From Vicugna vicugna (taxonomy: Eukaryota), in contig MU058065.1 in assembly GCA_013265495.1 (NCBI GenBank), positions 5,702,302 to 5,766,301 on the forward strand: a stretch of 64,000 nt of DNA. The letters run 5' to 3'. Under the pieces are notes generated by a model that saw only the letters and a list, made by a program, of their open reading frames with translations, searched no databases and was not told the DNA's origin. Made by a program: the position numbers and the translations under genes. This document shows, piece after piece, positions 20,801-64,000 of the stretch. The number at the start of each line of letters is the position of its first letter. Position 1 is the stretch's first letter.

Positions 20801-23800
20801 AATCTCCCCCCGGCCACCTGGGCCCCTGCGCTAGGCCCCGTCACCTGGATGGCTGCCTGGGCATCTGGCTCCAGCACCACATAGCGACGCAGCTGCCGAT
20901 CGGGGCAAATGTAGGAGAAGCGCAGAACAAGGATGGGGCCCCCCGGGCGTGGGTCTGAGCCCTGCTCAGGAAGAGGGGGTCAGAAGGACTCAAGTTCTAC
21001 TGAGAGCATGGAGGAAAACAACCGCTCCGGACTCTGTTCAGATGCTTTTGCTGACAGCCACGCTCTGGCCCAGAAGCTTGCTCCTCAGCCCAGCCTCCCC
21101 AGCCACCTGGGGACCTGCCTTTGCCCCGCAGCTCCTCTCCCCGGCACCAAGCTCAGCAAGAGACCGTGGGAGACGCCCAGCCCGCACCTGGCACCCGACG
21201 CCATGCTGTCGGAGTCGGCTCCTGAAAGAAGCCCAGCACCTCTTCTGGAACCCTCGCTTCCCCTGCTCACCTCGGGCGCTGCTTCTCTCTGGGTCTGGGT
21301 CTCCGCCTCTATGTCAGCTGCCTCCAGACTCTGGAGCTCAAGCCGTTCCAGGGTCCGAGCCGCTTGGAGTTCCACCTCAAACAGGTGGCCAGAAGTGACC
21401 CAGAGAAAGCATTCCCTCCCCCGCACGCCCCCGGGTCCCTCCAGGGGACACACCAACATGGGGCGGCAGAGCTCCACTGAAGAGAGACCAAGAGGGGAGC
21501 CCCGTAAGAAGGGTGACATACCCAAGACTGCCCTCCTGTAGGGTGGCCATCCATCCAAAAGGGGTCAGGTGCCCGCACCTGGGTTCTCCTAACCCTCCCA
21601 GACACGCCACCAGCACCTGGTCCCAGCCTCCCCCGTGGTCACCGAGCACTCACCCTCCACTTCGTTGTGCTCCTGCTCCTCCTCCTCTTCCTCTTCCTCC
21701 TTTCCTCCCTCCTCTTTTCCCTGCTCCTCCACCACCTCCTCCTCCTCCTCCTCCAGTGGCTCCGGCTCCACCCTGACTTCCTCTGCCACTTCCTCTGGAG
21801 ACTCCCTCTCCAGGGGCAGAGAGCCTGGCACAATCTCAGGGCTCGGGACATCCAGGGGCAGGGTGCTGAGGGCAGAGGTCTCAGAGGTCACCAGAACAGG
21901 GGTCCCAGAGGCCTCCAGGTGATTCCTATACTGCAGCCAGTCACAGCCAAATCGTTCTCGGAAACTGTTCATGAGTTCAAGTTCCCGATGTTGCTGCACA
22001 AACCATCCTGGGCAGGTAGGGAAGCGCACAGGTAAGCAAGCCCAGCCCCACCACAACCCTGACAACCCAGCCTCTTCAGAGCGTGCTCCTCAGAGTGAAG
22101 TAAAGGGGGTGTAATGGCAGGGGGAGAGGGAGGTCAGAGAAAGGCCAGAGGCCTCCCCTCGGCAGCATGTCCCAAAGTCTGTTTTACAGAACCCTGCGGT
22201 CACGTGCAACCCTGGAGTGGGCAGCACCTGCTGCTTGGGAGAGTTGAGATACACAGTAGCACGTTTAATGTCCTGAGATGTCCTGGAGGGAGGACACCTA
22301 CATAACCCTGTTTACCCTAGCTTTTCCCAAGCTGATCGAGTCACGGAATCCTCTCATTATATTACCTTCTGACATCCCACAAAATTAACATTCCATGGAA
22401 AACCCTTTGGAAAATGCTGCTTGGGGACAGTCTCTGCTCCTTTCCCCAGACTAAAAGGAAAGAAGAAGGACTAGGAGAGCCGCCACAACGCCCCACTCCA
22501 CCAAAAAGAGAAGTCCTCCTGACTACAAGACTGGAGAGTGCTGGACTGGGGCAGGGGGCAGGACTGACTCACCAGCCGGGGAGGGGTCCAGAGTCCGGGG
22601 CTCCGGGTCTGTATCACTGGGTTCCGAGATACTCGCCCGCCTCACACGGACTCGGCTCTGAGGTTGGGTAGAGGGACCACATTCTATGAAACCCAGGGCC
22701 TCCCACCCTGCCATCTGGGGCCACCTACCTAACTACCCAAAAAATTCACCCACAAGCAAAGATAAGCCCTTACCATTTCCAGCACAGCAGCAACCCAGAG
22801 CCCTCGTAAAGGCAACCAACCCCTAGCACGAGGCAGCCTAGGACACCAGTTACCTTAACCTTACGAACAGGAGGCTGGGCCACAACGCCTCCCGATGAGG
22901 GGCTGTCACTCAGGTCGGGGCCGCCAGAGGTTTCGGTGGTACTCCCCACTGGCCAAGGCAGAGGCAGGGCTGGGGGCCCAAGCCCTGAGGATGTGGAGGC
23001 CTGGCGTGGGGTGACAGGAAGGAGAAGGAGGTTGGAGCCAGGAGAGCACCTCTGCCCTGCCCAAGCTCGGCCTACTTTCCAGCTGACCAAGAAGACCCTG
23101 ACCTGGACAACCGTCTGTTTCCCTCAACTAGCGCCCTCCCTTCATGTCCTCCCAAATCGACTCCACCCCCTTCACTCCCACCACACGAACCTGAAAATCA
23201 GTCAGTGACAAGGCCTTTCCATCAAGAAGGAACTGAGCAAAGATAAAAGGGGAGAGGCGTTGTCAGTGGGGGAGCGCATGCCCTAGAGAGCCTCAAGCTG
23301 GGGCTGGGAGCCCTCCTAGTCCTATAAGGACCACCAGGCTTGGTGGGTGTAATGGCTTAATAAGCAGCGGGATCAAGGCTTTGGCCCTTCACCTAAGGGT
23401 GGGGTGGGGTGGGGAGGGGCAAGAGGGCGCAGGGGTGGGGAGAGGCCTGGGCAGGGAAGGGAAAGCAGAATGGACTCAGAAAGACCACTCACCCCGGCGG
23501 CGGCATCCCTGGCCCGGGGTGACAAGTACTGGGCAGTGGCTGCTCGGTGTGCTGGGTGGAACCACAAAGGATTCCCCTCCAGGTAGAGCTGAGGGGCAGT
23601 AAGAGACTGAGGTGGGCCATGGGCCTCCCTGGGTGAGGAAGGGTGCTGAGCAACTCAGCATGGGAGAGAGGGAAGGAGGGGCATGAAGCCCACCCCCAGG
23701 TCCTCACCTTTCGAAGCTCAGCCAGCAGCCATAGCGGCGACAGCTCCCTGTGTCTTTCCAGCAAGTTGTAGGCCACATCCAGGTGCCGCAGGTTCCGCAG

Positions 23801-34904: not shown

Positions 34905-35805
34905 GACATATCAAATCCAATGCATAGAAGAACTTTCATGCAGTGAAATAAATCATAGAGCAAGAATAGGACTTCAGTATAATTATTACATTCTTGGATA
35001 GAAAAGGATATCACAATGATTTTTTTAAAAAATCAACTGAAAAATTGAACATGAATATGAAATAACAAGAACCCCTCAAAAGAATGATCAGAATGAGCAC
35101 AGCTAAAGGGGTACATGCCTGACTGGGAGGGTTGAGCAAGTATATTTTTCTATCACATAACACAAGACAAAATATGCAAAGTATTTTATTTTTGAAAAAG
35201 CTAAGATACACAGAGGGTTGATCTAACACTTTCAGTATCAGTTAATATAAAGTTCTGAAGGAGAATAAAGAAAGAATATGAAAGGAAGTTATCCTCAAAT
35301 AAGTAAAAGAACAAAATATCCCAAAATTGAAGAAAAAACATGAATCTTCAGTTCAAAAGGGCCCACCAAATGCCAATTAGAATCCCTTTTTCAAGCTAAC
35401 AATGTGGCTCTATTATGGTGCAATTTCAGATGCCATGGTAAGGAGGAAATCTTGAAAGCTTCCACTTAGGAGATGGGGGCAGGGGGAGCAGATGAACTAT
35501 AAAGGTATGAGAATCGTATACACATTAAGTCTCATTGAAAAACAGGATACAAGAAGCAAATGGAGAGAATTTTTCAAAATTCAGGGGAAAAATATCTTTG
35601 AATCTAGAATTGTATACACAGCCCAACCGCCATTCAAGTGTGAAAATAAAAAGACTTTTTTCAGTTACAGGGGACTCAGAAAGTTTATCACCTGCAGACT
35701 TACTCTGAAATAAGCAGTAAAGGAGGAAAACGATACTAAGAAAAATGAGCCCAAGAAAAGGGAGAGGCCAAAAGCAATGGTGAGCAAAGACTTTAGTAAA
35801 TTTGT
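34905..35805 (+). mobile_element. Old L1 ORF1 remnant (L1ME-type)
   Basis: Degenerate ORF1 motifs (CATGAATCTTCAG.TCAAAAGGGCCCACCAAATGCC; GAATCTAGAATTGTATACACAGCCCAAC..CATTCAAGTGTGAA). Confidence 0.6.
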
Positions 35806-35901
35806 TCAAGCTCAGGGTAGGACAAAACAGGAAGGAAAAAAAGGGGGTGAGGTGGGTGGGGAGAAACATTGAAGGCATAAGAAGGCAGGGAGCTGGCAGA
35901 G

Positions 35902-37121
35902 ATGGTGAAGGCAGCACCTAGTCCACAGAGTAGAAAAGGAGATCTTCAGGGCTGTGACCCTCAAAAGCACAGGATTTGCAGAATTTGATAAGAATGTGAA
36001 GACCTTGCAAAGAAATCTGAAAATAACCAGAGTGATGATGTATTGAGAAATAAATTGACCTTGGCAGAAATGTATGAAGATGAATGGAAATGCAAATCTT
36101 CTAAATATGATAGACCTAGAATTACGGTCTTTAAAAGCACATGAATACCACCTCAAACATTTTCCCACTATTGGGGAGATGTTCATTTATTTGCTTGATG
36201 TGCTGACTACCACATCACTCCATTGTAAGGTCTGGTCAAGTGAACATGGATACAGTGGATTACATATAATTTGACCTTCCACTGGGCAAATTGTGAATGA
36301 ACTTTGCAAAGAGGCAAGGGAACATGGGACTGTTCCTCTGCATTTAGCCTCAAGAGCTTCAGGTGGTAACAAATCTAACTCATCTACAGGTGGAGGGTAC
36401 AGATTGGATTATTCCTTTTGTAAGCGGTCTGAATACAACAATGAGAAAAAAAATTAGCTGCGAGATGTTCAGATTCTGCTTAAACTGTGACGTAACAGTT
36501 TTAGTTTAGATAATGGAGAACTGAGACCTTACAGTCACCCAATAAATGTTCAGTATCTTGAATTTGTTAAGAGAAGGGTGGCTCTCTTTGCACACATGCC
36601 TGAAACTCAGCAACTTATATTAGAAATTTTTTAAAGTGGCATTATTGATGGCAGAAGATTTCAAAAGAAATTCTCCTGGAGCTTCTGCAACTGGTTCAGG
36701 GTGACCAAGTGAATTTGGATATGCAGGGTCATCAAAATCAAGAATACATACAACCTAGAACAAAGCTCAAGGCTTTTTAGTAGAGAAAGCAAAAACTTGG
36801 AAGCCTTACACCTGAAATTGTCAGTACGTCTTCCTCCCCAGAAGCGAAGAAGAACTCAGTACTTAATGCAGTTGTTCCTGCGGACGCTACAGTGCCCGTG
36901 ACAAAAATTCATATCAGGTTAGCAGCTGAGAGTCACTTGATACAAAGATTCAACAGTACACACAGAATCCTAGATGTTCCCGGCTTTATTGTACATTCCC
37001 ATCCTGAATTTGCAACTCTTGACTTCGTTCTTGTGTCTTTGTTTCCAGAGAGCCCACAGATGAAAGCCTGATACGAGAAGCAGGTATTCCTAATGCTGTG
37101 ATACTCCAGCAACTAAAATAG
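35902..37121 (+). pseudogene. UBXN2B: Processed pseudogene of UBXN2B (UBX domain protein 2B / p37), full CDS with stops and frameshifts; 3' UTR-like sequence continues downstream
   Basis: Intronless segments translate to ..RRSSG..AQDLQ / LTLAEMYEDEWKCKSSKYDRPRITVFKS / SSEHGYSGLHII*PSTGQIVNELCKEAREHGTVPL..TGGGYRL..FCKRSEY / DVQILLKL*RNSFSLDNGELRPY / KLGSLTPEIVSTSSSPE..TKIHIRLAAESHLIQRFNSTHRILDV..NAVILQQLK*. These are collinear with the recalled UBXN2B SEP-UBX protein, with several in-frame stops. Confidence 0.92.
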
Positions 37122-37745
37122 CATTGTTCCGAGCCATGCAGTAGCAGATAGGAAAGGTGATGTGCCACGTTAATAAGGAAAATACTTCCAGCATGAACAC
37201 AATCAAATTATTTTTATTACTTTTCCAGATACATTTTTGGTTTATTCTATCTTCCAGCCTTAGTATAGATACATTTGGACTAGGAATAGCTCTTGAGATA
37301 AGTATGTTTTGAATTTTTAGTTGCAAGTCTGGCTTAAGTTGATAACTTTTGTACATCCAGCCAAACCACTTTGTTACATGCTCAGTGTTAATGTAACAAC
37401 ATTCTTGGGCAGAAACAAAAATGAGCAAAACCCCTTTTTGATAAATCATTTGGTAAAATTTGCATTTCAGTTTCTTGATGCTGCATTGACCAATAGCCAT
37501 TAAGAAATCTTTTTGTCAAATAAGTTGAAAGGTTTTTGTCATATACACTGAAAAGTATTTACATTCTGATTTTGAAATAGTTTGATCATATAATACTTAT
37601 TTCTCCTATTAAGATTTTATGCATCTTTTAAATTATTGATTTAGCTATATTACTAGTATCAAAAAATACAGCTTGGCATTTTGGAGGAGGGTTGCTGAAA
37701 AGGTTTTTATTATTAAGATAGCATTATTTAAGGTAGGTTTCTGAC

Positions 37746-38905
37746 TTTTTTATACATACACATACTTGTTTTTGTATTCTTTTTCATTATAGGTTAATAC
37801 AAGATATTGAATAGTTTCCTGTGCTATACAGTATAAACTTGTTATTTATCTATTTAAAATATAGTGGTTAGTATTTGCAAATCTCGAACTCTCAATTTAT
37901 CCCTTCCCACCTTCCTCCCCACCAGTAACCATGAGTTTGTTTTCTATACCTGTGAGTCTGTTTCTGTTTTGTAAATAAGTTCATTTGTCTTTTTTTAGAT
38001 TCCACATATAAGTGATGTCAATTTTTCTTTCTCTTTCTAGCTTACTTATCTTGGAAGACAGTTTCCAGGTCCATCCATGTTGCTGCAAATAGCATTATTT
38101 TATTCTTTTTTATGGCTGAGTAGTATCCCATTGTATAAATATACCACAACTTCTTTATCCAGTCATCTGTCGATGGACATTCAGGTTGTTTCCATGTCTT
38201 GGCTATTGTATATAGTGCTGTGCTGAGCATTGGGGTGCATGTATCTTTTCGAATTAAAGTTCCCTCTGAATAGATGCTCAGGAGTGGCATTGCTGGATCA
38301 TATGGTAAGTCTGTTTTTAGTTTTTTGAGGAATCTCCATACTGTTTTCCATAACGGCTGCACCAAACTACATTCCCCCCAGCAGTGTAGGAGGATTCCCT
38401 TTTCTCCACACCCTCTCCAGCATTTATTGTTTGTGGACTTTTTAATGATAGCCATTCTGACTGGTGTGAGGTAATACCTCATTGTAGTTTTGATTTGCAT
38501 CTCTCTAATAATTAGCAATATTGAGCAGTTTTTCATGTGTCCATTGTCCATTTGTATTTCTTCATTGGAGAATTGCTTGTTTAGTTTTCTGCTCATTTTT
38601 GGACTGGGTTGTTTGTTTTTTTTCTTATTAAGTTGTATGAGCTATTTATATATTCTGGAAATTAAGCCCTTGTCAAATATTTTCTCCCATTCCATAGGTT
38701 GTCTTTTTGTTTTCTTTATGGTCTCCTTTGCTGTGCAAAAGTATATAAATTTAATTAGGTCCCTTTTGTTTATTTTTGCTTTTATTTCTATTTCCTGGGT
38801 AGACTGCCCTAGGAGAACATTGCTTAGATTTATGTCAGATAATGTTTTACCTATGTTTTCTTCTCAGAGGTTTATAGTGTCTTGTCATATGTTTAAGTCT
38901 TTAAG
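37746..38905 (-). mobile_element. 5'-truncated L1 (ORF2 C-terminus plus 3' UTR), relatively young
   Basis: ORF 38042-38596 encodes [59 protein letters not shown], the L1 ORF2p C-terminal cysteine-rich domain. T-rich tail at 37746. Confidence 0.92.
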
Positions 38906-39329
38906 CAGCTTGGCATCCTTATTTATAGAGTTGTGACCATCATAAACTAGAAACAAAAAGACGTTAAGATCAGCAGTCCTTAGGAAGATGTGTTAAGTAG
39001 CACTTTAAAATCAAGTAGTACTGTCCCCTTTAGAGCCTGTCTTGATCACATTAATTTATTCATTCAGCACATTTTTCTAGGAGATCCACTATATATATTT
39101 AACACTATTCTAACTGCTCAACCCAGAGTATATTCTACTCTGAGACAAAACTAGTACATAAATCCAGGAATGTATTTTTTGTCAGACACATGGGATCTAA
39201 AGAATGACCACATAAATATTTGAAATTCTACTGAATTTCATATTTCCTGGATGAGGTAGGATATATCAGGAATGATAGAGAAGCTTTTTCTTCTTCCCAG
39301 ATACCACTTCATCTTTGGTCACTATTCCT

Positions 39330-41760
39330 GGTAGTTTTCTATTGTTGCCATAACAGATTACTACAAATTTAGTGGCATTAAATAACACAGATTTATGATC
39401 TTACAATTCTGTAGGTTAGAAATCCAACTCACTGAAATAAAATCAAGGTGACAGCAGGGCTACATTCCTTTCAGGTGGCTCTAAGGGAGAATCGTTTCCT
39501 TGACTTTCCAGCTTCTATAGGCTGCCTATATTCCTTGGCTTTTGGTCCCCTTCTCCCATCTTCAAAGCCAGCAACATTACCTCTCTGTGACTCTTCTCTG
39601 TCATCACATCTCTCAGACAACAGCCAGGAAAGATTCTCTGTTTTTAAGGACTCGTGTGATTAGATTGAGCTCACCAAATAATCCACAATTACCTATCCCC
39701 ATCTTAAAGTCTATAGTAACCTTAATCATATTTGCCAAGCCCCCTTTGCCATGTAAAGTAACATATCACAGGCTCCTTCTGGAGGCTCCAGGAGAAAATC
39801 TGTTCTTTGCTTCTTCCAACCTGTAGAAGCTGCTGGCATCCCTTGGCTCATGGCTCTACCTACCACTCTAATCTCTGCTTCTGATCTAACATCTTTCACG
39901 ACCAGCTTTGGTTCTCCTGCCTCCCTCTTAAAAGGAACCTTGTTATTACTCTTGGCCTACCTAGATAATCCAGGATAATCTCCCTATCATCTCAAGGTGC
40001 TTAATTTAATCACATCTGCAAAGTCCCTTTTACCATGTAAGGTAACATGTTCACAGATTTGGGGACTAGGAAACAAACATTTTTGGAAGGCCATTATTCT
40101 GCATGCTGCAGTCCATCTCTGCCCCACACATTCACTCCATACCAAATAAATTCACCCTCTTCCAAATGTGTTTAAAAATTTCAGTCCATTATAGCCTCAA
40201 CTCAAAATCCAAAACCTTATCTGAATCTCACTAGGTTAAAAGTCCCAAATCTCATGATTTAAATTATCTAAATCAAGTATAGGTGAGGATTTGGGTATGA
40301 TTCCTGGGGCACAATACCTCTCCATCTGTGCACCTGTGAAACAAATTACCTGCTCCCAAATACATTGGTATGATAGGCATAGGCTAAAAGTTATAGATAT
40401 TCCCATTCAAAAACCAGAAAATGGAATGAAAAAAGGAACTACCAGTTCCAAGAAATTTAGAAATCCAGCCAGGCAGACTCCATTAGGTTTCAAGCCCTGG
40501 AAATAATCTCTGGCTTGCAGCTTCATCCTTTGGGCTTTGACTCCCTCCCAGAACATCTTTCCTTTTTCATGAGAGGTGGCACATGCATGTAGATGATTAG
40601 TTTTATCAGCTTGTTTCTGGCCTGTAGAACTGGTGGGGCAGGGAGTGGGGTGGAGATGGGTCCAACCACCTTCTTTCATTTCATACTCTCTCTGTCCCTT
40701 TCCATTTAAGAGGTGGCGTTTCTGCTGGTATAACATTCTCAAGAAAATTGTGGGTCTCCTATGTGTGTCATGGGAGACAGAAGGCTCCTCCGTGGATCTT
40801 TCCTGGATAATATTTTTATTTTTGGCTTTTAATGAGATGGCCAAGGGGATCTATGAGTCACACCCTCAAACTCTTCAAGGAGCTTTTTGTGTGACCGAAT
40901 ACTCAGACCTTCTGATTTTTTTTTTTTTTGAGAAATTTGGAAAAGGTTGTACAGCTGTACCCATACCTCTTTCTACAGAGCAGGCTTTCCTGACAGTGAG
41001 TCTCTTATTTTAGTCCCTTTTGCCATTTGGGTAGGCTGAGAATTTCCCAAATCATCAAGTCCTGGTTCCTTTACATATTTTAATTGAATGTTTTATTGAG
41101 GTATAGCTGATATGCAACATTATATATGTTTCAGGTATACAACATAGTGATTCACAAGTTTTAAACATTATATTTCATTTATACTTACTGTAAAATATTA
41201 GCTATATTCCCTATGTTGTACAATATCTCCTTGTGGCTTACTTACGTTATACATAGTTTATTTAGCAGGTTTTTTTCTCCATTTATCTATCTCCGCCAAC
41301 ATTTTACTGTAATCAGCAAGAAGAAAGCAGGCGGCATTTTCCACATTTCTCTTAGAAATCTCCTTAGCTAAATATCTAAGTTTGTCACTTACAACTTCTG
41401 TTTTCCACGTAACTGCAGGGCACAATTCAGCTAAGTTTTTTGCCACTGTATAACAAGTTTCCATGGCATGTTCCTCATGTCCTTCTGCACCCTCACTGGC
41501 AGTGCCTTTAATGTTCTTATTTCTACTAACAGTCTGTTCACAATGATTTAGATAGTCCCTGTGGTGATTGGGTAGGTTCCTTACTTCCTTTGAGCTCTCA
41601 CTGGCATTAGCTTTCATATATCTGCTAAGGTCTATTCAAAGCAATCTTGGCTCTTTCTGTGATGCTCCTCAAAATTCTTCCAGCCTTGAGTCTAGTTCAG
41701 AAGCCACTGCCACAGGTTTGGTATTGGTTACAGTAAGTAGCACCGCACTTCCAGGTATCT
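39330..41760 (-). mobile_element. MaLR element (MLT1E-like LTR ~39330-40110 plus internal sequence); 5' LTR missing
   Basis: LTR motifs at 39330-40110 followed by MLT-int-like sequence ending GTTACAG..AGCACC.CACTTCCAGGTATC at ~41760. Confidence 0.7.
41078..41260 (-). mobile_element. L1 3' end fragment inserted in the MaLR internal region
   Basis: TTTTATTGAGGTATAGCTGATATGCAACATTATATATGTTTCAGGTATACAACATAGTGATTCAC is a typical L1MA-type 3' terminus. Confidence 0.75.
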
Positions 41761-42199: not shown

Positions 42200-42545
42200 G
42201 GGGATCAACACACACATATATATAACTGAATCACTATTCTCTACATCAGAAATAAACACAACATTGTAAATCAACTATATTTCAATTAAAAAAAAATAAT
42301 AATTTCCCTTTAGTGTGTAAATTGGTGCAGCCAGCTAGGGAAAACAGGATGGATGTTCTTTAAAAAACTAAAAATAGAGCTACCATATGATTCAGCAATC
42401 CCACTCTTGGGCATATATGCAGAAAAGATAAAAAATCTCATTTGAAAAGATACACACACCCCAATGTTCATAGGAGCACTATTCACAGTAGCTGATACAT
42501 GGAAACATCCCAAGTGTCCATCAACAGATGACTGGTTTAAGAAGT
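42200..42545 (+). mobile_element. L1 fragments (3' UTR end with A-tail at ~42200-42297; ORF2 3' fragment at 42310-42545)
   Basis: ATAACTGAATCACT..ACACAACATTGTAAATCAACTATATTTCAATTAAAAAAA; AAAAACTAAAAATAGAGCTACCATATGATTCAGCAATCCCACT. Confidence 0.75.
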
Positions 42546-43554
42546 GGTGATTAGAATGACCAAATTTTTATTTTGTTAACTAAAAACTGAAAAATATACC
42601 AACCCCCCCACAAACCACTACTTTCTACCATCACCATAATATCATAAAAAGAATAACACTTTCACACACAGAAAGAGACAAAGAGAGAGGAAGGGTAACT
42701 TTAGAATAAAGAGCAGCCCTTTAGAAAGAATACCTTTGGCTTTGGGAAAATTGCTATGCTGTACTCACTTCTCCCACTCTGTCTCAGATAGGGGAAGACA
42801 TTTCCCTAGCAACACCAGTCTGCTAACTGGCTTAGTGGAGAACACTGTGCCCCTCAGTAGAGTGTCCCCAGCCCTCAGGTCTTATCCACATCCCCAGGAC
42901 AGGGAAAAGTCTGGACCTCACAGGGTCATAGGCAGCCCCAGCAGGAAGATGGAGCACCCTAGCCTAGTAGGAGGATTGAAGATCTTGGGGACAGGCCTCG
43001 CTCAAGGGAGGGGGTATCTGGTGAAGGAAGCCAGACAGGCAGAGAGTGGTGCTCAGTCGAGCTTGGGGATAATCTCTCATTCCCAACCAGCCCTCTCCCC
43101 AGTCCCCTGCCTGAGTTGGGAGCCCAGGGGCCTGAGCAGACTGGTTGTAATGCTGGGTCTAGGTGAAGGTGCTGGGAGAGACTTAAGCTCATGAACAGGC
43201 ATATTCCCCCCTCCAGAACAGTGGCAGAGCCTCCTGGGGAATTCAGCATCAGCAGAGACTGGGGGAGCACCAGAGTGTGGAATGGGCTGCTCTGGGGGCT
43301 CTAGTGCTGTAAGGAACAATAGCTCATTCAGCTCAGCTCACACAGGGAGAAGGTGTTAGCCTAGGGGTGACAGGGTGGGTTCTCTCCCCTCCACACCACC
43401 TTCCTAGGGCAGGCACTTACCAGCACACCTCATACCCCATACATCTATCTAGGTTAATTGAGGGGAGTCTTGCATTAGCATATAAATACACACTTCAGTA
43501 TCAGAAAGTGCTTAGAGTTTCAGTCTGAGGGACCTGAACATCCCAACCCTTCCC

Positions 43555-44682: not shown

Positions 44683-47115
44683 TTAGATGCAAGCACAGTG
44701 CTGCGTGAGAAGGTTGGGCACCGTCTCATACTTGAAAGAGTAACCTCCATCTGAGGTGGTGCGGACACTTAGGGGCCTCATGGTCCCCGGGAGAGCAGCA
44801 CAACAGGGCTGGGCTCCTGGCACCAAAGAGAGGGGCTGGACAGGGGTAGGAGGAGTCCCGGGGACTGGCAGGGGCAGGTCTGGCAGGGTGGGCAGCCCAC
44901 AGCCCCCGTGACAATAGTGGAAGATGAAACTGGGAGGGTGCACGATCCACCGGTCCCAGCCCAGCTCCTGGAAGGAGATGTTGAGGGCCGCTCTGTGGCA
45001 GTCGGCAAGGGCGGCGGGTTCCTCTGGAGGCCTCTGTAGCAGGCGCAGTGCAGCAGGAGACCAAGGCCAAGGCAGCGGGGAAGTGGAGCGTCGGGCTCTC
45101 TCCCCTCCACTGGGTGGCCTGGCCCGTGTGTGTGCCACCAGGAAGGGGGTGGCCTCAGGCCGGGCCGAGCAGGAACAGAGAGGACAATGAAGCAGTAGCA
45201 CCAGGACAGGGTGGGTCAGCAGAGGGAAGGCAGAGGCGGCCAGGTGCAGCACAGCCCAGCGAGAAGGTGCCTGGCCCAGCGACATGGGCACAGCCACAGG
45301 GCCCCCGGATGACAGTGCCAGCAGACCTAGCAGGGGCCCAGAGCTATTGGCAGCTGCTGTCTCCTGCCTGTCCAGTCCTGTGTGGAACCACAGCTGGGCC
45401 GAAGTCACCTGGCGGTTGCGTGTGTGCTGAGATGGCCGGAACACATATGTGAAGAGGCCCTCCTCGGCCTCCTGGGCCAGCTTTCCAGCAGCTGGCTCAT
45501 CCCCACAGCTGGCACCTGCAGGAGGTAGAGGGAAGGCAGAGGACAGCCCTGACTGGCAGAACCCAGGACCCCTCCTCCTCAGCAGGAAGGATACAGCTGC
45601 TCTCCACGAGCCTGCCACTCTACTGAGACTCCTCCCATCTAGGGAGAATTGACAGAGGCTCCCCTTTTGTTACTTCTTCATTAAAGGACTTTAAAAATAC
45701 CAGACATTGCCAACTTCTCCCTGAAGTGGCTTTGCCAATTAATATTCCCATCAGCGGTGTGTAAGAGGCCTTGCACTCTCTTCCTTCACCAACACCTAGA
45801 ATTGTTAGTTAGATTTAATTTCTGTTCATCTGATACTGTGAAATGGTACCCTGAATGGTGTATACACAGGCATTTGTTATATTACTCTTTATAGCTTTTT
45901 AGATGCCAGAAAAATTGCATAAGAAATTCCTTAAAATAATTCCACTTTAAAAAGACAGGTTAACACCAAGAAAGAGGAAAAGGAGGAGAAAGGATGTAGC
46001 TCAGAAAAAAGGAGTGTGCATTCTAAGAAAGTGCAGGTGGCATCCTTACCCTGACAGTTACATAGATGGCACCAGACAATCATGAAGCAGTACAAGTTGA
46101 GCAATTAGGGCTGTACCATTACATGGATTATCTCATTATAAACCTCACCAAAGATGATCCATTTTGCAGATAAGAAAACTGAGGGTTAGAAAGATGAAGT
46201 GCCATTTAACTATTAAGTGGCCAGGCTGGGATTCTGCCTGATCCCAAAGCCACACTTTTACTCACTATACTGCATAGGGACAAAGCACAGGGAGGTGAGG
46301 GATCCTTTCTGAGAGAAAAGGGGGCCAGATTACAAGAAAGTCCAGCCAGAGGAGGGCTTTACTCATTAAATCAATGGAACATGGGGAGGTGAGAAGGGAA
46401 CTCATGAGAAGACAGACTAGTTTTGAAGTTTCCCAACTAATCTTTCTCCTGCATCCCTGATATCTTCCCAAGTCTCAACTACTTTGGGCTAAAGAAACAA
46501 TGTTTGGAGCAGGAAGTAAAAGCAAAGACAGGAGGAGAGGTGGCAGGAAAGAGCCCATGCCCAGATACCTCTGTCCCTAGAGACCCCTGGGCCCCTAGAC
46601 CACTATCTCCCAAATGCCTCCTATGAGCCATACACTCTAGATACACCATCTCACTTAATTCTGAGAAGCAGGCATTATGTCCATTTTACAGATGAGGAGA
46701 CAGAGGCTCAGGGAGGTTTAGTAACTGGCCCATTGCTGCAAAGCCAGTTAAGTGACAGGTCTGGGATTCAAATCCTGACCTGCCCGGTTCCCAAGCCCAA
46801 GCTATACCACACTGTTTCTCAAAGTTGAGATGCCAGTTCCCCACCCCCATTACCTGTAGCCGGGAAAAGGATGGCCTGGGAGACATCCTCCTCCTCGGGC
46901 TCAGAGCCCCTGTGCTTGAAGCCCCCCACAGCGTGTCTTCGGGGCAGGCGCCTGACTCCAGAATCCCCACGTTCCCCAGTCACCGCTGGGGGTCCCAAGG
47001 CATCGAGGAACAGGGCCCTCACCTTGGCCAGGACAATTTCCCTGTCCAGCTCTGGCCCTTGGCAGCCATGCCCACCCCGTGGGGCCAGCAGTAAGAGGAG
47101 CAGCTGAGGCCACAT
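44683..47115 (-). CDS. INHA: Inhibin alpha chain precursor (TGF-beta family), 364 aa, two exons
   Basis: Exon 1 at 47115-46854 ([26 protein letters not shown]...QAILFPAT) and exon 2 at 45515-44683 (..[67 protein letters not shown]). Furin site and cystine-knot cysteines are intact. Confidence 0.98.
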
Positions 47116-47457: not shown

Positions 47458-47799
47458 GTCACAACCCAGCACCCAGCACAGAGGTGACACCAGGTGGGAC
47501 AGGAGCCTGGAGGCTGGGGTCTGCCAGCTCCTAAAAGTGTTATTTGTCAGAGAGAATGCGGCAACCCCTCAGACCTTCTGGGGCCCCTTTCAGCCAAGCA
47601 GCTGCTGGGCCAGTCATGGAGGGGAATGGCTGGGGAGGGGGCTAGAACTGGGGCTAGGGGTTGGGGGCAGGTGGTCCCGCCTGCTCTATACTTAGACTGG
47701 GGAGCCAGTCTGGGCTCTTGTCCTCCAGCTGTGTCATCAGAGAATATTTTGGGGATTGGCAGCTGCAGGCGCCTCTGCCACTCAGGCCCAAGCCTGGCG

Positions 47800-49220
47800 G
47801 GCGGTTGGGGACCTGGCGGCTGGAGGTGGGAGGGAGGAGGGGAAAGAGGCCCTGGCTGTGGGAGGGGGCTGGGAAGACTGGCTCTCCGGAGCAGGAAGCC
47901 AGGCCGCAGGCAGGGGAGGCTGCGGGGCCCCTCGCTGTGCAGGCAAACAGGAAAGACTGCCCTCTGAGCTCCGGGCCCCGGGCCCGGGAATTACCGCCGC
48001 CTCAGAGTCGCAGCTCCGGGCCGAGGGTAAGGAGGCGAGCCGGGAGCGGGCGGCCAGGGGAGAGCCCCGCGGGTCCCAGCACCCGGTCCTCAGACGCGCC
48101 CCGCCTCCTGGCCTCCCGCCGCTGCTCCGGGCCTTCGCCCGCGCCGCCGCGATGAAGGCAGGCTCGGGGGATCAGGGGAGCCCCCCGTGCTTCCTGCGCT
48201 TCCCGCGGCCCGTGCGGGTGGTAAGTGGCGGCGAGGCCGAGCTCAAGTGCGTGGTGCTCGGGGAGCCGCCGCCCATTGTCGTGTGGGAGAAGGGCGGGCA
48301 GCCGCTGGCGGCCTCCGAGCGCCTGAGCTTCCCGGCGGACGGCGCCGAGCACGGCCTGCTGCTGAGCGACGCGCTGCCCACCGACGCGGGGGTCTATGTG
48401 TGCCGTGCCCGCAACGCGGCCGGAGAGGCCTACGCGGCGGCCGCCGTCACCGTGCTGGAGCCTCCGGCCCCCGAGCCCGAGCCCCAGCCTGCTGAGCGCC
48501 CGCTGCCGCCGCCTGGGGCCGGGGAGGGAGCCCCGGTGTTCCTGACGGGGCCCCAGTCCCAGTGGGTGCTACGGGGGGCGGAGGTGGTGCTGGAGTGCCA
48601 GGTTGGGGGCCTCCCTGCACCCACGCTGTACTGGGAGAAGGATGGGATGGCGCTGGACGAAGTGTGGGACAGCAGCCACTTTGCGCTCGAGCCGGGCCTC
48701 GCCGAGGGCCGCCCGGGCGCGAGCCTGGCGCTGCGCATCCTGGCGGTTCGGCTGCCCGACTCGGGCGTCTACGTTTGCCACGCCCGCAACGCGCACGGCC
48801 ACGCGCGGGCCGGCGCGCTGCTGCAGGTGCACCAGCCCCCCGAGAGCCCGCCCGAGGACCCCGACGAAGCCCCCAGGCCCGTGGTGGAGCCGCTCAAGTG
48901 CGCGCCCAAGACCTTCTGGGTGAATGAGGGCAAGCACGCCAAGTTCCGCTGCTACGTGATGGGCAAGCCCGAGCCCGAGATCGAATGGCACTGGGAGGGC
49001 CGCCCGCTTCTCCCCGACCGCCGCCGCCTCATGTACCGCGATCGCGACGGCGGCTTCGTGCTCAAGGTGCTTTACTGCCAGGCCAAGGACCGCGGGCTCT
49101 ACGTGTGCGCGGCACGCAACTCCGCGGGCCAGACGCTCAGTGCGGTGCAGCTGCACGTCAAAGGTACCGCGGCGCCCCCGGGCGGCCGGGGCTCTGGAGA
49201 GGGGCCTCCAGCGCCCTCCT
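47800..49220. promoter_or_regulatory. CpG island covering the OBSL1 promoter and exon 1
   Basis: Dense CpG and high GC content. Confidence 0.8.
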
Positions 49221-52200
49221 AGGCCCTCCTAACTCCAGCCCCACTCAATGCCCAGAAGATGGTGGGCGTAAGGGAGGCTGAATATTGAAATGCCATTTCC
49301 CACCCACCTCCCAGACTCCCCAGGGATTCGGATTTAGTAGGTCTCCAGGGTACCTACTCTGGGAAATTCTTGGCAAACTCCCCAAATGATTCTGAGGCAG
49401 ATGGTGTAAAACCACCCTTTGATAAAGGGCTTTAATGAATGATTGATGTACAGATCAAGAGGGGCCCAGAACTCTTGTACTCCAGTGGTTTTCAACTTCT
49501 TTGTTAGTTTACCACCTGCCCCCCCCCCCGCCAATGGAAATCCCATCTAGGGCCCCGATGTATAAAAGACAGATAAAAGGATCATTTTATGGATGTAAAA
49601 TTCCAAGTCCTTATTTACAACTTACAAAGTCAATCAGTGAAAACAAGGGGTCTATTTTATTTACACACATTTTAGGTGGAGGCTGCATTCATAACCAAGT
49701 CTAGTTTGTGAGCCTCCTGGGGAAGGCCTCGTTGCAGGCCTCACACTGAGAAATTCCTGACTCACACCAAAGGTCAACTTGAGGGAAAGAAAAAAAAAAT
49801 GCCCCACAGTTTTTACTATCCTTTCATTAGACTGCTCTCCAGGTTTGCAAGAAGAGGAAGGTGAAGGAGAGGAAATTTGTTTCCAAGTTGAGTCCCCAAC
49901 AGTATCTGATAAATGCTTACTTTGCTCATAAATAGAAATTCATGGGTGAGGGGGGAGGAACACCCCAAACTCACACTGGAAGTGAAAGTCCCCCAAAATA
50001 GGAGTTTATCACAACCCACAACATTGTACCTTCCCTAGTTATCACCCAACTTTTTCCCTCAGAGGAAAAAATGTTGGCAAATCTCCTGATCCCTGCCTGG
50101 CATGCAGTCAAGCATGTGGCACCTGCGCAGTGGTGGTGGCCTCCTGGGTACAGTTTGATGTGCACAAACTGGCCAGGCAGGGCTAAACTCTATCCTCCTG
50201 AGACGAGAAAAGCCCAGCGGGAAGGCAAAGCTTCCCAGAGGTGCTGGACAAGACAGGTGTGCTTCCCTAGCAGCCCAAGTGAACCCACTGGCCCTTTCCA
50301 TTGTCAGGCTTTCTTTTTGTAAAATGCAGTTTTGAAAATGGTTAAAGTACTTTCAAAATGAAATTCAGCTCAAACCCTTATAGAATTTTGTGGGCTACCT
50401 GTGAGGGGCTCCAGAGAACAATTTGAAAATCATGAATGTGGTCCAAGCCCTTCCATCCCTTTAGGCCCAGGGTCATGAAAACGGCTTTGGTCAAGGTGAT
50501 GTGAGGGCTTGTGAGTGTCAGGGTCAGATGAGAATTTGGGCCATCTGACTTCTCTCCCTGTGCTTTCTCTGATTCCACAATGCCTGCTGGCTCTGGGAGA
50601 AGAGCAAACGGCCTGAGCAAAGTGGGTTTAGGCAGTTGATGATGGGAGGAGAGTCTCCTGGGCCGGCCCTCTCCAGAGCCCTCTCTGGTCTCTCCCTTCT
50701 CCACAGAGCCCCGCCTCCGCTTCACGAGGCCCCTGCAGGACGTGGAGGGCCGGGAGCATGGGATCGCGGTGCTGGAGTGTAAAGTCCCCAACTCCCGCAT
50801 TCCCACGGCCTGGTTCCGCGAGGACCAGCGGCTGCTGCCCTGCCGCAAGTACGAGCAGATTGAGGAGGGCACGGTCCGGCGCCTCATCATCCACAGGCTG
50901 AAGGCGGATGACGATGGCGTCTACCTGTGCGAGATGCGAGGCCGCGTGCGCACCGTGGCCAACGTGACAGTCAAAGGTCAGCTGGCCGGTGGGAAGAGGC
51001 CGAGACCGAGGCTGGTAGATGCCCAGACCCTGGGCTGATGGACTACCGTCCGTATCTCAGGGCCCATCCTGAAGCGGCTACCCCGGAAGCTCGACGTTTT
51101 TGAGGGAGAGAACGCAGTGCTGCTGGTGGAGACACGCGAGGCTGGGGTTGAAGGGCACTGGAGCCGAGATGGGGAGGACCTGCCGGCCACCTGCCAGAGC
51201 AGCTCCGGCCACATGCATGCCCTGGTCCTTCCAGGGGTCACCAGAGAAGATGCTGGCGAGGTCACCTTTAGCTTGGGCAACTCCTGTACCACCACTCTGC
51301 TCAGAGTCAAATGTGAGGCCATGAAAGCCCCTAGCAGACTTCTCAAGGGCTGGACAGGAGAATCAGGGCAGGAGGGTGACCAGATGCCCAGAATCTGGGT
51401 TGGCAAAGTGGACTTAAGGTCTGAGGGCTGTGGGAGGCTGGAGCAGGGCTCGGATGCAAACCCTGCCTCTGTCTTAGGCGTCAAGCACAATCCCCCGGGA
51501 CCCCCAGTGTTGGTAGAGATGTTCAAGGGCCACAAGAACACAGTCCTGCTGACCTGGAAGCCTCCCGAGCCAGCCCCCGAGACGCCCTTCATCTACCGGC
51601 TGGAGCGGCAGGAGGTGGGCTCGGAAGACTGGATCCAGTGCTTTAGCATTGAGAAGGCTGGGGCCGTGGAGGTGCCTGGAGACTGTGTGCCCTCCGAGGG
51701 TGACTACCGCTTCCGCGTCTGCACGGTCAGTGAACACGGCCGCAGTCCTCACGTTGTGTTCCATGGATCTGCTCACCTAGGTGAGTTGGTCCTTCCTGGC
51801 TGGCCAGCAGTGGTACTCCAAGTAGCACCCTCCCCTCCGCCTTCCTCCCTTCCCCAGCCCTTGGTCCCTGTCCTGTAATATGCCTTCTACCTGCCAATCT
51901 CTGCCCTTTGCCCCGCCCTCCCCCCTGGTTCTCACGGCTGTGCTTTGTCCCCATCTCAGTGCCCACAGCTCGCCTGGTGGCAGGTCTGGAGGACGTGCAG
52001 GTATATGATGGGGAAGATGCTGTCTTCTCCCTCGATCTCTCCACCATCATTCAGGGCACCTGGTTCCTTAATGGGGAAGAGCTCAAGAGTAATGAGCCAG
52101 AGGGCCAGGTGGGGCCTGGGGCCCTGCGGTACCGTATAGAGCAGAAGGGCCTGCAGCACAGACTCATCCTGCAAGCTGTCAAGCACCAGGACAGCGGGGC

Positions 52201-55200
52201 TCTGGTTGGCTTCAACTGCCCAGGTGTGCAGGACTCGGCCGCCCTCACCATCCAAGGTTCGTGCTGGTGGGGACCAAGGTGGGCAGATAGGTTCAAGACA
52301 CAGAATTCCTGTTGGGAAAATGAGGCAGATGCTGTCTTGCTTCTCACATCTGGGCCAGGAGAGTAAGGAGCATCCGTGGTGAGCTCAGATAGAGGGCTTA
52401 GTGATCCAGAAGTCTGATTTCAACCCATGCACAGCAGATAAGGGACCCTTTATTATCTTTTGTCAGCATCATATCCAAATTCTCCGGAGTACTTTGTAGT
52501 TTGCAGAATTCTGTCATGTTTGTCATCTCAGACAAACGGCCCCTGGCCCCCTAGTGCCTGACTGCTTCCTGCCCTGTCATGTAATCGCTAACACTCTCAG
52601 AGCAACTTTCTGGGTGCCGGGCCCAACCCTAATCACTTTACATACATTGATTAACACAATCCTCTTAACATCCCTATGTGATGGGTTCTTTTGTCACCCC
52701 AGTTTATAGATGGGCAAACTGAGGCCCAGAGAGGTTCAGTGACTTGCCCAAAGTCACAAAACTAATGAGTGGTGCTGCTGGATTAGGAACCCAGGCAGTC
52801 TGTGTCCAGAATCACACTCTGCCACCTGGAGAGACAGGGGAGGAGAGGGAATGAGGCTTCCTGAGGAGGACAGTTCTTGGTAGGGATCTGAAAATTCAGG
52901 GACCATGGTAACATTTGCCATTGCACTGTTGCTGGAGTTTATAAGGCCAGTCAAGGAATTCCTTGGTGCCCAGGCATGAGGCCTTGAGGCAGTTAGCTGC
53001 AGCATCCCAAGAGGAGGACAAAGTAAGCAATAGCCAGAGCAGTGTTCCTAAAATACAACCTGGTTCACCAACATCGGAGTCATCTTTTGGGGGCTGGTTG
53101 ACAATGCAGATTCCTTGGCCCTTGCAGGGAGGGACATTTTTACCAGGCTCCCTAGGAATTCTTATGCACACTAAGAGTTGGTGTGTGAGCCCAAAACTAT
53201 TTTTTAAAACTCCAACGAATGTGTCAACAGCCATCATCTGACCTGACGTGCTCACCCTCCCTACATTGGGCACGTGCACCAGAGAGGGGTGCTTACTGGG
53301 GTTAGACTAGGATGCCGCCCGTGACTGTGCTTCTCACTGTGCAGAGAGCCCAGTGCACATCCTGAGTCCCCAGGACAAGCTGTCGTTGACCTTCACGACC
53401 TCGGAGAGGGTGGTGCTGACCTGTGAGCTCTCTCGGGTGGACTTCCCAGCGAGCTGGTACAAGGATGGGCAGAAGGTGGAGGAGAGTGAGTCGCTGGTGG
53501 TGAAGATGGATGGGCGCAAACACCGCCTGATCCTGCCCGAGGCCGGCGTCCAGGACAGTGGCGAGTTTGAGTGCAGAACGGAAGGGGTCTCAGCCTTCTT
53601 CAGTGTCACCGTTCGAGGTCAGGGACCACAGCAATCTGGGCTCATTCCAGCTGAGACTGACCCTGAGGGCTGTGTGAGCCCTGCCCCCTGGTCTGCCTGC
53701 CTGGGGGTCCCTTCCTGGGAGGGCCTAGTGGGCCAGGGGTCACATGTTTTGAGATCCCGCTGCCTGTGCACCACCCTCCAGTACATTTGGCCCCCACATA
53801 CCCGCTGCTGGGGGAGTGTGGGGGGAACTCAGTGCAGGTAAGGGAAGAAGAGGCAGGAGCTAACATTTGTTTGGCACTTGCTGGCCAGGTCTTGTGCTGA
53901 GTACTTCACTTTCATTTAATCTCCATGACTATATGAGGACCAGTACCTCCATTCACAGATGAAGAAACTGAAGCTCAGAGAGGTTATGCATCTTGCCCAT
54001 TATCACACAGCCAGCAAACACCCTAGCTGGGTTCACACCCAGGAGTGCTTATCCCACCGCCCCAGGAGGCCAGGGTCAAAGGGAAGCTTTAGGTGCAGTG
54101 GTCCAAAGGCTCTCAGAAGTCAGCCCACATTCTGGCTGCTTCAGAACCACCCTGGAAACCTGTCATTAGTGCATAGCCCTAGGCTCCTGTGGCCTCCAGA
54201 GCCAGAATATCCAGGACAGAGACTGGGGATCCACTCTGGGAGGACAGCTCAGGAACCAGTGATCCAGCTCAATCAATCTTCTCACTTTGAGCGCAAATCC
54301 TGTTTCAGCCCCATTGCCAGGAGGTCCTCTGGCCCCTGCCTGAATGCACCCAGGGATGAGGAACTCACTACCTTTAGGGAGCACTGCCCCATGGTGGCAC
54401 CACTAAGTCATTACCACCTCCTGCCCATCCTGGGGCCATGCAGCAGGGGCTTTCTCGTGAAAACAGCAGCAAGCACCACCCTGATGTGTCCTGTGATAGT
54501 GACCTCCTCTCTGCCTAGACAAAGGCCCTCTGTGTCCCCACCCAGTCCCCTCTGATCCTCTGGAGACTCACAGCACTCAGGTGCCACATGATCTCCTGTC
54601 ATGCCTCACCTGCCACGCCCTCAGTGTTCCACGTCATCGCCCCAGAGCCCCCAGCACAGCTGGCCTCCCTCCCAATGTCCTCCTGGGAGGAGACTCTCCT
54701 AGCCAAGTGGCCAGTACAGACTCACGTCTCCCATGAGTGGGTGTCTGTGTGACCCCATCTCTGCTGCCCTCCAGACCCCCCAGTGCACATCCTGGACCCC
54801 CGTGAGCATGTGTTCGTGCATGCCATAACTTCGGAGTGCGTCATGCTGACCTGTGAGGTGGACCGGGAGGACGCCCCTGTGCACTGGTACAAGGACGGGG
54901 AGGAGGTGGAGGAGAGCGACTTTGTGGTGCTGGAGAATGAAGGGCCCCATCACCGCCTGGTGCTGCCTGCCGCCCAGCCTCTGGACGGGGGCGAGTTCCA
55001 GTGTGTCGCCGGGGATGAGCGGGCCAGCTTCACCGTCACCATCACAGGTGGGGCTCTAGGTGGGCTGTGGGACATGGAAGGTGTACCCTAACCCCACCTG
55101 GGCAGTCGTCACATTCCTGGACCATGGTTCTCAGCCCTTGCTTCCCTCCCCCAAGTTGATCACACACCCCACCCCCTTTCTCCTCTACCCATGGTCTGCA

Positions 55201-63458: not shown

Positions 63459-64000
63459 GTGCGGCCTCTGGAACCATCGCCTGCCTGCTAACTGCTCTGG
63501 GTGTGACCATACTGACATCACTACCTGTGTGTCTCCCACTCACCTTGCCTGTCCCAGTGTGGCCCTTATTGACCTCCCTGCCAGAGTGTGACTCCCTTGA
63601 CCCTTTGGCCACGTGTGGCATCAGTGACTGCCCTGCCTGAGTGTGGCTCCACTGAGCCTCCAGTCCCTGTGGACCACTGGCTGTGCCGCTGTAAGATGCC
63701 TGTGCTAGGGTGGTCCCTGTTGCCTGCCTGCCTGACCGTGGCCCTGCCAACCACTCTGAAGGTGAGCTCACTGATTATGCCTGCTGCAGCCCCCTCTGCC
63801 TGCCTGAGTGTGCCCTTGTGACTACCCAAGTCCCAGTGATCCACTGACCATGCAGGAGGGTGACTCCACACCAGCAACTCTGCTTCAGGGTCCCCCAGTT
63901 TTGCTTTCAGCCCCAGTGTGTTTCCCAATGACCACATCAGCTCTAGGGTCCCACCATTGTTCCTCTAAGCCCATGGTGTCCCCACTGGCCAGTTTTTCCT

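What the first reader, a model, noticed from the sequence alone, without database searches (positions are those of the whole stretch)
35902..36700. UBXN2B retrocopy preserves three extra segments at exon junctions: a fossil of an alternatively spliced p37 mRNA
Seen: the pseudogene is collinear with the UBXN2B CDS but has three inserts, at 35982-36054 (73 nt, between DLQ and LTLAEMYED), ~36159-36228 (~70 nt, between PPQ and SSEH) and 36577-36665 (89 nt, between VKR and EILLEL). None has a poly-A tail, a TSD or a repeat-like sequence. Inference: these positions correspond to parental exon junctions as I recall them. The reverse-transcribed germline mRNA would then have included three cassette exons at once, two of them with premature stops. 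This would be an ancient record of splicing or NMD regulation of a p97/VCP adaptor.
Basis: partly seen in the sequence, partly recalled or inferred. Interest (0 to 1): 0.7.

Follow-up and report, generated by a model that had tools for sequence, protein, structure and literature searches.

The report
UBXN2B retrocopy with three poison exons
An old, dead DNA copy of the UBXN2B messenger RNA kept three short optional exons that each wreck the protein; all three match optional exons of the parent gene in other mammals, so it is a tidy fossil of a rare unproductive transcript rather than a new kind of element.

Summary
A decayed, intronless UBXN2B copy between STK11IP and INHA carries three inserts at parental exon junctions: 35982-36054 (73 nt), 36159-36229 (71 nt), 36577-36665 (89 nt). 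Each matches an alternative exon of UBXN2B in another mammal. Insert 1 matches a hominid isoform N-terminus (14/21 residues) and has the length of a 73-nt human poison exon between exons 1 and 2. Insert 3 matches the tail of human isoform 2 (13/18) and corresponds to a 91-nt human NMD exon. Insert 2 matches a beaked-whale exon (49/65 inferred bases); I found it in no human catalogue searched. All three shift the frame. The copy shows none of 10 camelid or cetartiodactyl-derived residues, so it is probably old. Parental introns and reads were not seen. Retrocopies as fossils of splice variants are known, and two of the exons are already catalogued. What is new is three such exons in one molecule, and hints that other UBXN2B copies (apes, seal) also derive from unproductive isoforms. 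Likeliest reason the transcript survived: its first stop is start-proximal and exon-junction NMD is weak in male germ cells (inferred, untested).

The parts
35902..35981 (+). Remnant of UBXN2B exon 1 coding part (ATG at 35902, frameshifted, ends at DLQ)
   Evidence: tblastn block 35928-35981 with human isoform, 61%; translations
35982..36054 (+). Cassette exon '1a', 73 nt, frameshifting; stop 95 nt after the ATG
   Evidence: 14/21 residues to P0243 (orangutan/Hominidae model), score 75 vs shuffled maximum 41; 73-nt NMD_in exon between human exons 1 and 2 in PMC13078869 Table S5a
36055..36158 (+). Exon 2, 104 nt
   Evidence: Same length as human exon 2; tblastn
36159..36229 (+). Cassette exon '2a', 71 nt, frameshifting
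   Evidence: Matches Mesoplodon densirostris isoforms X1, X3, X4 in two frames; 49/65 bases identical to the 67-nt exon inferred from those frames, both ends in register
36230..36576 (+). Exons 3-5, spliced without inserts (347 nt), with stops and small indels
   Evidence: One tblastn block, 70-71% to camelid proteins; length
36577..36665 (+). Cassette exon '5a', 89 nt, stop at 36632
   Evidence: 13/18 residues to the tail of human isoform 2, NP_001317464.1; 91-nt NMD exon between human exons 5 and 6
36666..37121 (+). Exons 6-8 coding part, spliced, with two stops and a frameshift; ends TAG
   Evidence: tblastn 67% over 127 aa plus C-terminal block; match to the UBXN2B chain of PDB 8b5r
37122..37740 (+). 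AT-rich tail, probably copied 3' UTR; true 3' end not defined
   Evidence: Position only; no parental UTR to compare; no poly-A signal or TSD found
37745..38905 (-). L1-like fragment that hides the 3' end of the copy
   Evidence: Recognised from memory; part of it (38145-38371) recurs inverted at 42316-42549, 77%

Best explanation
A processed pseudogene made by L1 machinery from one fully spliced UBXN2B mRNA with the order 1-1a-2-2a-3-4-5-5a-6-7-8, inserted between STK11IP and INHA in a germ cell long ago and decaying since. Shown: collinearity, junction positions, homology of each insert to a parental alternative exon, disablement. Inferred: L1 as the agent; one template molecule; age before most camelid and cetartiodactyl amino-acid changes. 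Inferred mechanism for survival of such a transcript (about 50%): ribosomes stop in exon 1a about 95 nt after the start, where NMD is often inefficient, so the later poison exons add no new trigger; weak exon-junction NMD in male germ cells would help. The copy itself most likely does nothing.
For: Insert 3: 10 of 12 hits end in the same tail; at least 35 of 277 fetched proteins carry it, from human, horse, peccary, bats, carnivores, squirrel and sloth. Insert 1: P0243, and horse and donkey models that begin RNR before exon 2. Insert 2: 3 of 277 proteins, all Mesoplodon, and the DNA inference. Junctions: exon lengths in supplements; other exons and skips at the same points in horse, squirrel, echidna and primates; a distant p47-like gene has a 110-nt exon ending at the same point before GT (L006, L007). 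The other four junctions are cleanly spliced and the human introns are 5.4 and 5.1 kb. Age: 163/238 residues identical to the camel parent, about 0.18-0.19 substitutions per site in a simple simulation; 0 of 10 diagnostic sites derived, 5 ancestral. NMD context: passages in PMC12776119 and PMC5803779; human 1a scored 0.126 and predicted non-NMD.
Against: No parental DNA was obtained: no genome is held and the metagenome scan gave 8 loci of 33-67% identity, none a mammalian UBXN2B. No read evidence. At protein level insert 2 alone is marginal (scores 46, 43, 39 vs shuffled maximum 44 in 60 shuffles), and its support comes from automatic models of one species. No poly-A tail or TSD found. Neither human exon rose significantly under cycloheximide after correction (1a +0.10, FDR 1; 5a +0.09, P 0.023, FDR 0.20). 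The pre-cetartiodactyl date rests on 2 of 4 sites; the other 2 are neither state, and one leans derived. The start-proximal safe zone ends at about codon 21-23 in LMNA and HBB, short of the roughly 32 codons here.
Confidence: 0.9

Rival explanations
1. Mosaic copy: the three exons never sat in one mRNA but were combined by template switching between isoforms during reverse transcription, or by later conversion with cDNA.
For: No transcript model with all three exons was among the 277 proteins; three independent low-level inclusions would be rare.
Against: No duplication, gap or inversion between the blocks; needs two extra events; the whale X4 model already shows 2-2a-3 joined as here.
Confidence: 0.05
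2. Same anatomy, no special escape from decay: a chance capture of a noisy transcript (possibly before its first translation) among the many retrocopies of a genome. This competes with the survival mechanism, not with the identification.
For: Earlier notes on this genome describe other retrocopies with extra exons (STYX, calmegin, unchecked). The finding was picked because it is odd. 4 of 6 human NMD-related supplements searched do not list UBXN2B (vs 53, 64).
Against: Two other UBXN2B-like copies also look like unproductive isoforms, though this is inferred from protein models only.
Confidence: 0.4
3. The inserts are later insertions (transposon fragments, captured DNA) into a canonical retrocopy.
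For: No repeat library could be searched.
Against: All three lie at exon junctions and match UBXN2B alternative exons of other mammals; no TSD or A-tail.
Confidence: 0.01
4. DNA-level duplicate with shrunken introns, or a partly spliced pre-mRNA with retained intron pieces.
For: No poly-A tail or TSD found.
Against: Inserts lack GT..AG ends; human 1a and 5a are internal cassettes within 5-kb introns; four junctions are exact.
Confidence: 0.02

Closest known systems
Processed pseudogenes as fossils of splice variants (Shemesh et al. 2006, PNAS 103:1364; title seen in a reference list; text not held; content recalled)
   Same: A retrocopy records an isoform of its parent, including exons missing from the main mRNA.
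   Different: Here three frameshifting exons are in one copy, and the copy appears to predate camelid-specific changes.
Human UBXN2B isoform 2 (NP_001317464.1, E5RJ36) and NMD exon chr8:58434858-58434948 (PMC7347940, PMC13078869)
   Same: Same position between exons 5 and 6, same reading into a stop, 13/18 residues.
   Different: 91 nt in human, 89 nt here; annotated alone, not with 1a and 2a.
Human UBXN2B cassette chr8:58413299-58413371 (PMC13078869 Table S5a) and Hominidae model A0A8I5ULH0
   Same: 73 nt between exons 1 and 2; 14/21 residues with the hominid model.
   Different: The link between the 73-nt coordinates and the hominid peptide is by position and length; the human DNA was not seen.
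Mesoplodon densirostris UBXN2B isoforms X1, X3, X4 (XP_059971781, XP_059971783, XP_059971785)
   Same: Exon between 2 and 3 with 75% identity over inferred bases and matching ends.
   Different: 67 nt vs 71 nt; automatic models, one species; in the whale the main frame runs through the exon without a stop.

Membership tests
Processed pseudogene (L1 retrocopy) | Parental exons joined without introns | tested here: met
   Collinear blocks and matching exon lengths
Processed pseudogene (L1 retrocopy) | Lies away from the parental locus | tested here: met
   Flanked by STK11IP-type, TGF-beta (inhibin alpha-like) and Ig-repeat exons; gene names INHA and OBSL1 assigned from recalled gene order
Processed pseudogene (L1 retrocopy) | Disabled reading frame | tested here: met
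   Stops and frameshifts in all parts
Processed pseudogene (L1 retrocopy) | 3' poly-A tail | tested here: inconclusive
   None found; 3' end undefined and followed by an L1-like fragment
Processed pseudogene (L1 retrocopy) | Target-site duplication | tested here: inconclusive
   No shared word of 8-14 nt between 35841-35905 and 37131-40000; old copy, ends uncertain
Parental cassette exon | Falls exactly at a parental exon junction | tested here: met
Parental cassette exon | Homologous to an exon spliced there in the parent gene of some mammal | tested here: met
   1a; 2a; 5a
Parental cassette exon | Present in the parental intron with AG/GT flanks | not testable with these tools
   No genome held; no mammalian locus in the metagenome scan
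Poison (NMD-inducing) exon | Inclusion gives a stop more than 50 nt before the last junction | tested here: met
   Stops at 35997, 36196, 36632 with exons 6-8 downstream; human 1a and 5a flagged NMD_in
Poison (NMD-inducing) exon | Inclusion rises when NMD is blocked | tested here: inconclusive
   Published cycloheximide data: 5a +0.09 (FDR 0.20), 1a +0.10 (FDR 1); 2a not listed
Poison (NMD-inducing) exon | Inclusion is regulated and tunes protein level | not testable with these tools
   5a appears in the table of dynamic human-brain events; no functional test seen

The most novel reading that the evidence does not exclude
Exon 1a acts as a master switch. Its start-proximal stop shelters the transcript from NMD, so germ cells accumulate stable, non-coding UBXN2B mRNAs loaded with further poison events, and these are what L1 tends to copy. 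It fits the camelid copy (1a+2a+5a) and an ape copy that seems to have 1a plus a skip of exon 3; a seal copy seems to have 5a without 1a. Retrocopies across mammals would then be a dated record of isoform-level NMD escape in the germ line, and of a long-conserved way to turn down the p97 adaptor p37.
Probability: 0.2. Interest if true: 0.62.

Novelty: new member of a known kind. Interest (0 to 1): 0.38.

Why it matters
The copy gives single-molecule phasing that short reads cannot: three unproductive exons on one ancient germ-line mRNA. It shows that exon 2a, so far seen here only in whale gene models, is old, and that 1a and 5a were already spliced in an early relative of camelids. It suggests a cheap genome-wide test: are retrocopies from NMD-class isoforms enriched for a start-proximal first stop? 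As an element it is an ordinary pseudogene.

Tried and rejected
Whole-genome search: none held. Metagenome scan for the parent gene: 8 loci from 183 candidate stretches, none mammalian UBXN2B. Sequencing runs: 14 DNA or unlabelled runs of organism A hold 97-100% of the words and 6 RNA-type rows hold 5-39%; none was laid, so this says nothing about expression. Search of 50% representatives with the 5' part: 4 hits, none covering a full insert. PDB search with the 5' part: no real hit. Rfam: nothing credible. I considered that insert 1 or 2 is the in-frame exon that echidna and reptiles have after PPQ: scores are within the null, rejected. The horse and squirrel extra exons at that junction are a different sequence. 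I considered the GT after the whale exon in model X3 as proof of a donor site: not claimed, since it could be the start of the next exon piece. Supplements without UBXN2B: PMC9882217, PMC13187750, PMC10123112, PMC8091538. PMC2718932 (abstract) and PMC2584115 (passages) did not bear on it. Earlier findings by relatives, sequence, first word search and near place: nothing.

Full report
Observation. The region is a decayed UBXN2B coding sequence on the + strand from ATG 35902 to TAG 37121. tblastn with camel, alpaca and human proteins gives collinear blocks broken at three places. The inserts are 35982-36054 (73 nt), 36159-36229 (71 nt) and 36577-36665 (89 nt). None has an A-tail, a flanking direct repeat or GT..AG ends, and none has a long match elsewhere in the window. 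No repeat library was available. No genome is held for the window. The copy lies between STK11IP-type exons on one side and an inhibin-alpha-like exon and Ig-repeat exons on the other (60 of the 92 long ORFs listed were scanned); the names INHA and OBSL1 are from recalled gene order.

Insert 3 (exon 5a). Read on from exon 5 it gives 18 residues and a stop. Ten of the 12 hits end in this tail, including human isoform 2 (NP_001317464.1), horse, peccary, bats, carnivores, hedgehog, squirrel and sloth. Identity to human is 13/18; 0 of 300 shuffles reached the score against 277 proteins. Lim et al. 2020 (PMC7347940; two supplement rows; passages) list chr8:58434858-58434948 as an NMD exon-inclusion event. 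PMC13078869 (supplement rows; passages) places this 91-nt exon between exons of 110 and 138 nt.

Insert 1 (exon 1a). In the frame of exon 2 it matches the N-terminus of UniRef A0A8I5ULH0 (orangutan, three Hominidae), 14/21 residues, score 75 against a shuffled maximum of 41. This is 1 of 277 proteins; horse and donkey models also begin RNR just before exon 2. PMC13078869 Table S5a lists a 73-nt NMD_in cassette between exon 1 and the 104-nt exon 2; both lengths equal those here.

Insert 2 (exon 2a). Three Mesoplodon models contain an extra exon after PPQR, read in two frames. At protein level the match is marginal (46, 43, 39 vs a shuffled maximum of 44). The two frames fix the whale exon almost uniquely at 67 nt; it matches the insert at 49 of 65 informative columns with both ends in register, 0 of 2000 shuffles reach that score, and the best local score elsewhere in the window is 38 against 59. 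The two human tables that list UBXN2B show no such exon. Table S6 of PMC13078869 (GENCODE events) does not appear to be among the held files and one file was cut when stored; these could bear on whether 2a is known in human.

Junctions. Other species add, skip or swap sequence at the same three points, and a distant p47-like gene has a 110-nt exon ending at the third point before GT. The other four junctions are joined exactly. Human introns 1 and 5 are over 5 kb, so the inserts are not retained introns.

Age. The copy is 68.5% identical (163/238) to the camel protein over the four pieces aligned, which leave out part of exon 3; a simple neutral simulation without a CpG term puts this at about 0.18-0.19 substitutions per site. 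Of 10 sites where camelids differ from the outgroups, the copy has the derived residue at 0, the ancestral at 5 and neither at 5. Of the 4 shared by Cetartiodactyla, 2 are ancestral and 2 neither, one of which leans derived. An origin before the camelid-specific changes is likely; before the cetartiodactyl radiation is plausible on two sites.

How it works. Shown: a spliced copy of order 1-1a-2-2a-3-4-5-5a-6-7-8, now dead. Inferred: L1 reverse-transcribed one such mRNA in the germ line. Poly-A tail and TSD were looked for and not found. The puzzle is why a transcript with three frameshifting exons was there to be copied. The first stop lies 95 nt after the ATG. Stops within about 200 nt of the start are often poor NMD triggers, with boundaries from about 21 to 100 codons by gene (PMC12776119, passages), and human 1a is predicted non-NMD (score 0.126). 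[quoted passage not shown] I put about even odds on escape of this kind against plain chance capture. Against regulation: neither human exon rose significantly under cycloheximide after correction, and 4 of 6 supplements searched do not list the gene.

Other copies. Ape models P0170 and P0212-P0214 diverge from the parent and read DLNKL at the 1/2 junction; removing a 70-nt GC-AG pseudo-intron from this window's exon 1a gives the same reading, which suggests that they carry 1a. They also run from exon 2 into exon 4, the exon-3 skip that Lim et al. list as an NMD event. A seal 'UBXN2B-like' protein on another contig than the main gene ends in the 5a tail. These are inferences from protein models; no DNA was seen.

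What could not be seen. Parental introns and splice sites and any read evidence of expression or co-inclusion. One search lists runs that hold the stretch, but none was laid.

Comparison. Retrocopies as records of splice variants are known (Shemesh et al. 2006: title seen, text not held, content recalled), and earlier unchecked notes of this scan report similar cases. Ten literature searches (listings only) showed no paper on a UBXN2B retrocopy or on co-inclusion of these exons; most subscription papers are not covered. Passages seen on UBXN2B isoforms in pig (PMC13063549) and exon skipping in rat (PMC12337383) give no exon structure.

Verdict. A new member of a known kind; interest 0.38, or about 0.6 if the exon-1a shelter model holds.

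Noticed in passing
P0170, P0212-P0214, P0015 (ape and human-like proteins): A separate hominoid UBXN2B copy that appears to include exon 1a and skip exon 3, both NMD-class events; annotated as a protein in chimp, bonobo, gorilla and gibbon.
   Followed up: partly
P0021 (Phoca vitulina, XP_032267674.1): 'UBXN2B-like' 195-aa protein on a different contig from the main gene, ending in the exon-5a tail; possibly a young retrocopy of isoform 2.
   Followed up: no
P0095, P0091, P0113 and other echidna, reptile and bird proteins: An in-frame exon of about 24 codons after PPQ that the placental and marsupial proteins fetched lack; horse (P0076) and squirrel (P0053) models have yet other exons there. 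This junction seems a hotspot of exon gain and loss.
   Followed up: partly
L006:461-570, L007: Distant p47-like gene with a 110-nt exon equal in length and end point to human UBXN2B exon 5.
   Followed up: yes
window 15469-21564 (-), 44686-45669 (-), 47696-63637 (+): STK11IP-type exons, an inhibin-alpha-like exon with intact frame, and an Ig-repeat gene (probably OBSL1); the retrocopy is intergenic and antisense to the first two.
   Followed up: partly
window 35400-35880 and 37745-38905: Old L1 ORF1-like sequence upstream and a younger L1-like 3' fragment downstream (both recognised from memory); a 10-nt word at about 37670 recurs at about 38906 and may be that fragment's TSD.
   Followed up: no
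   Followed up: no
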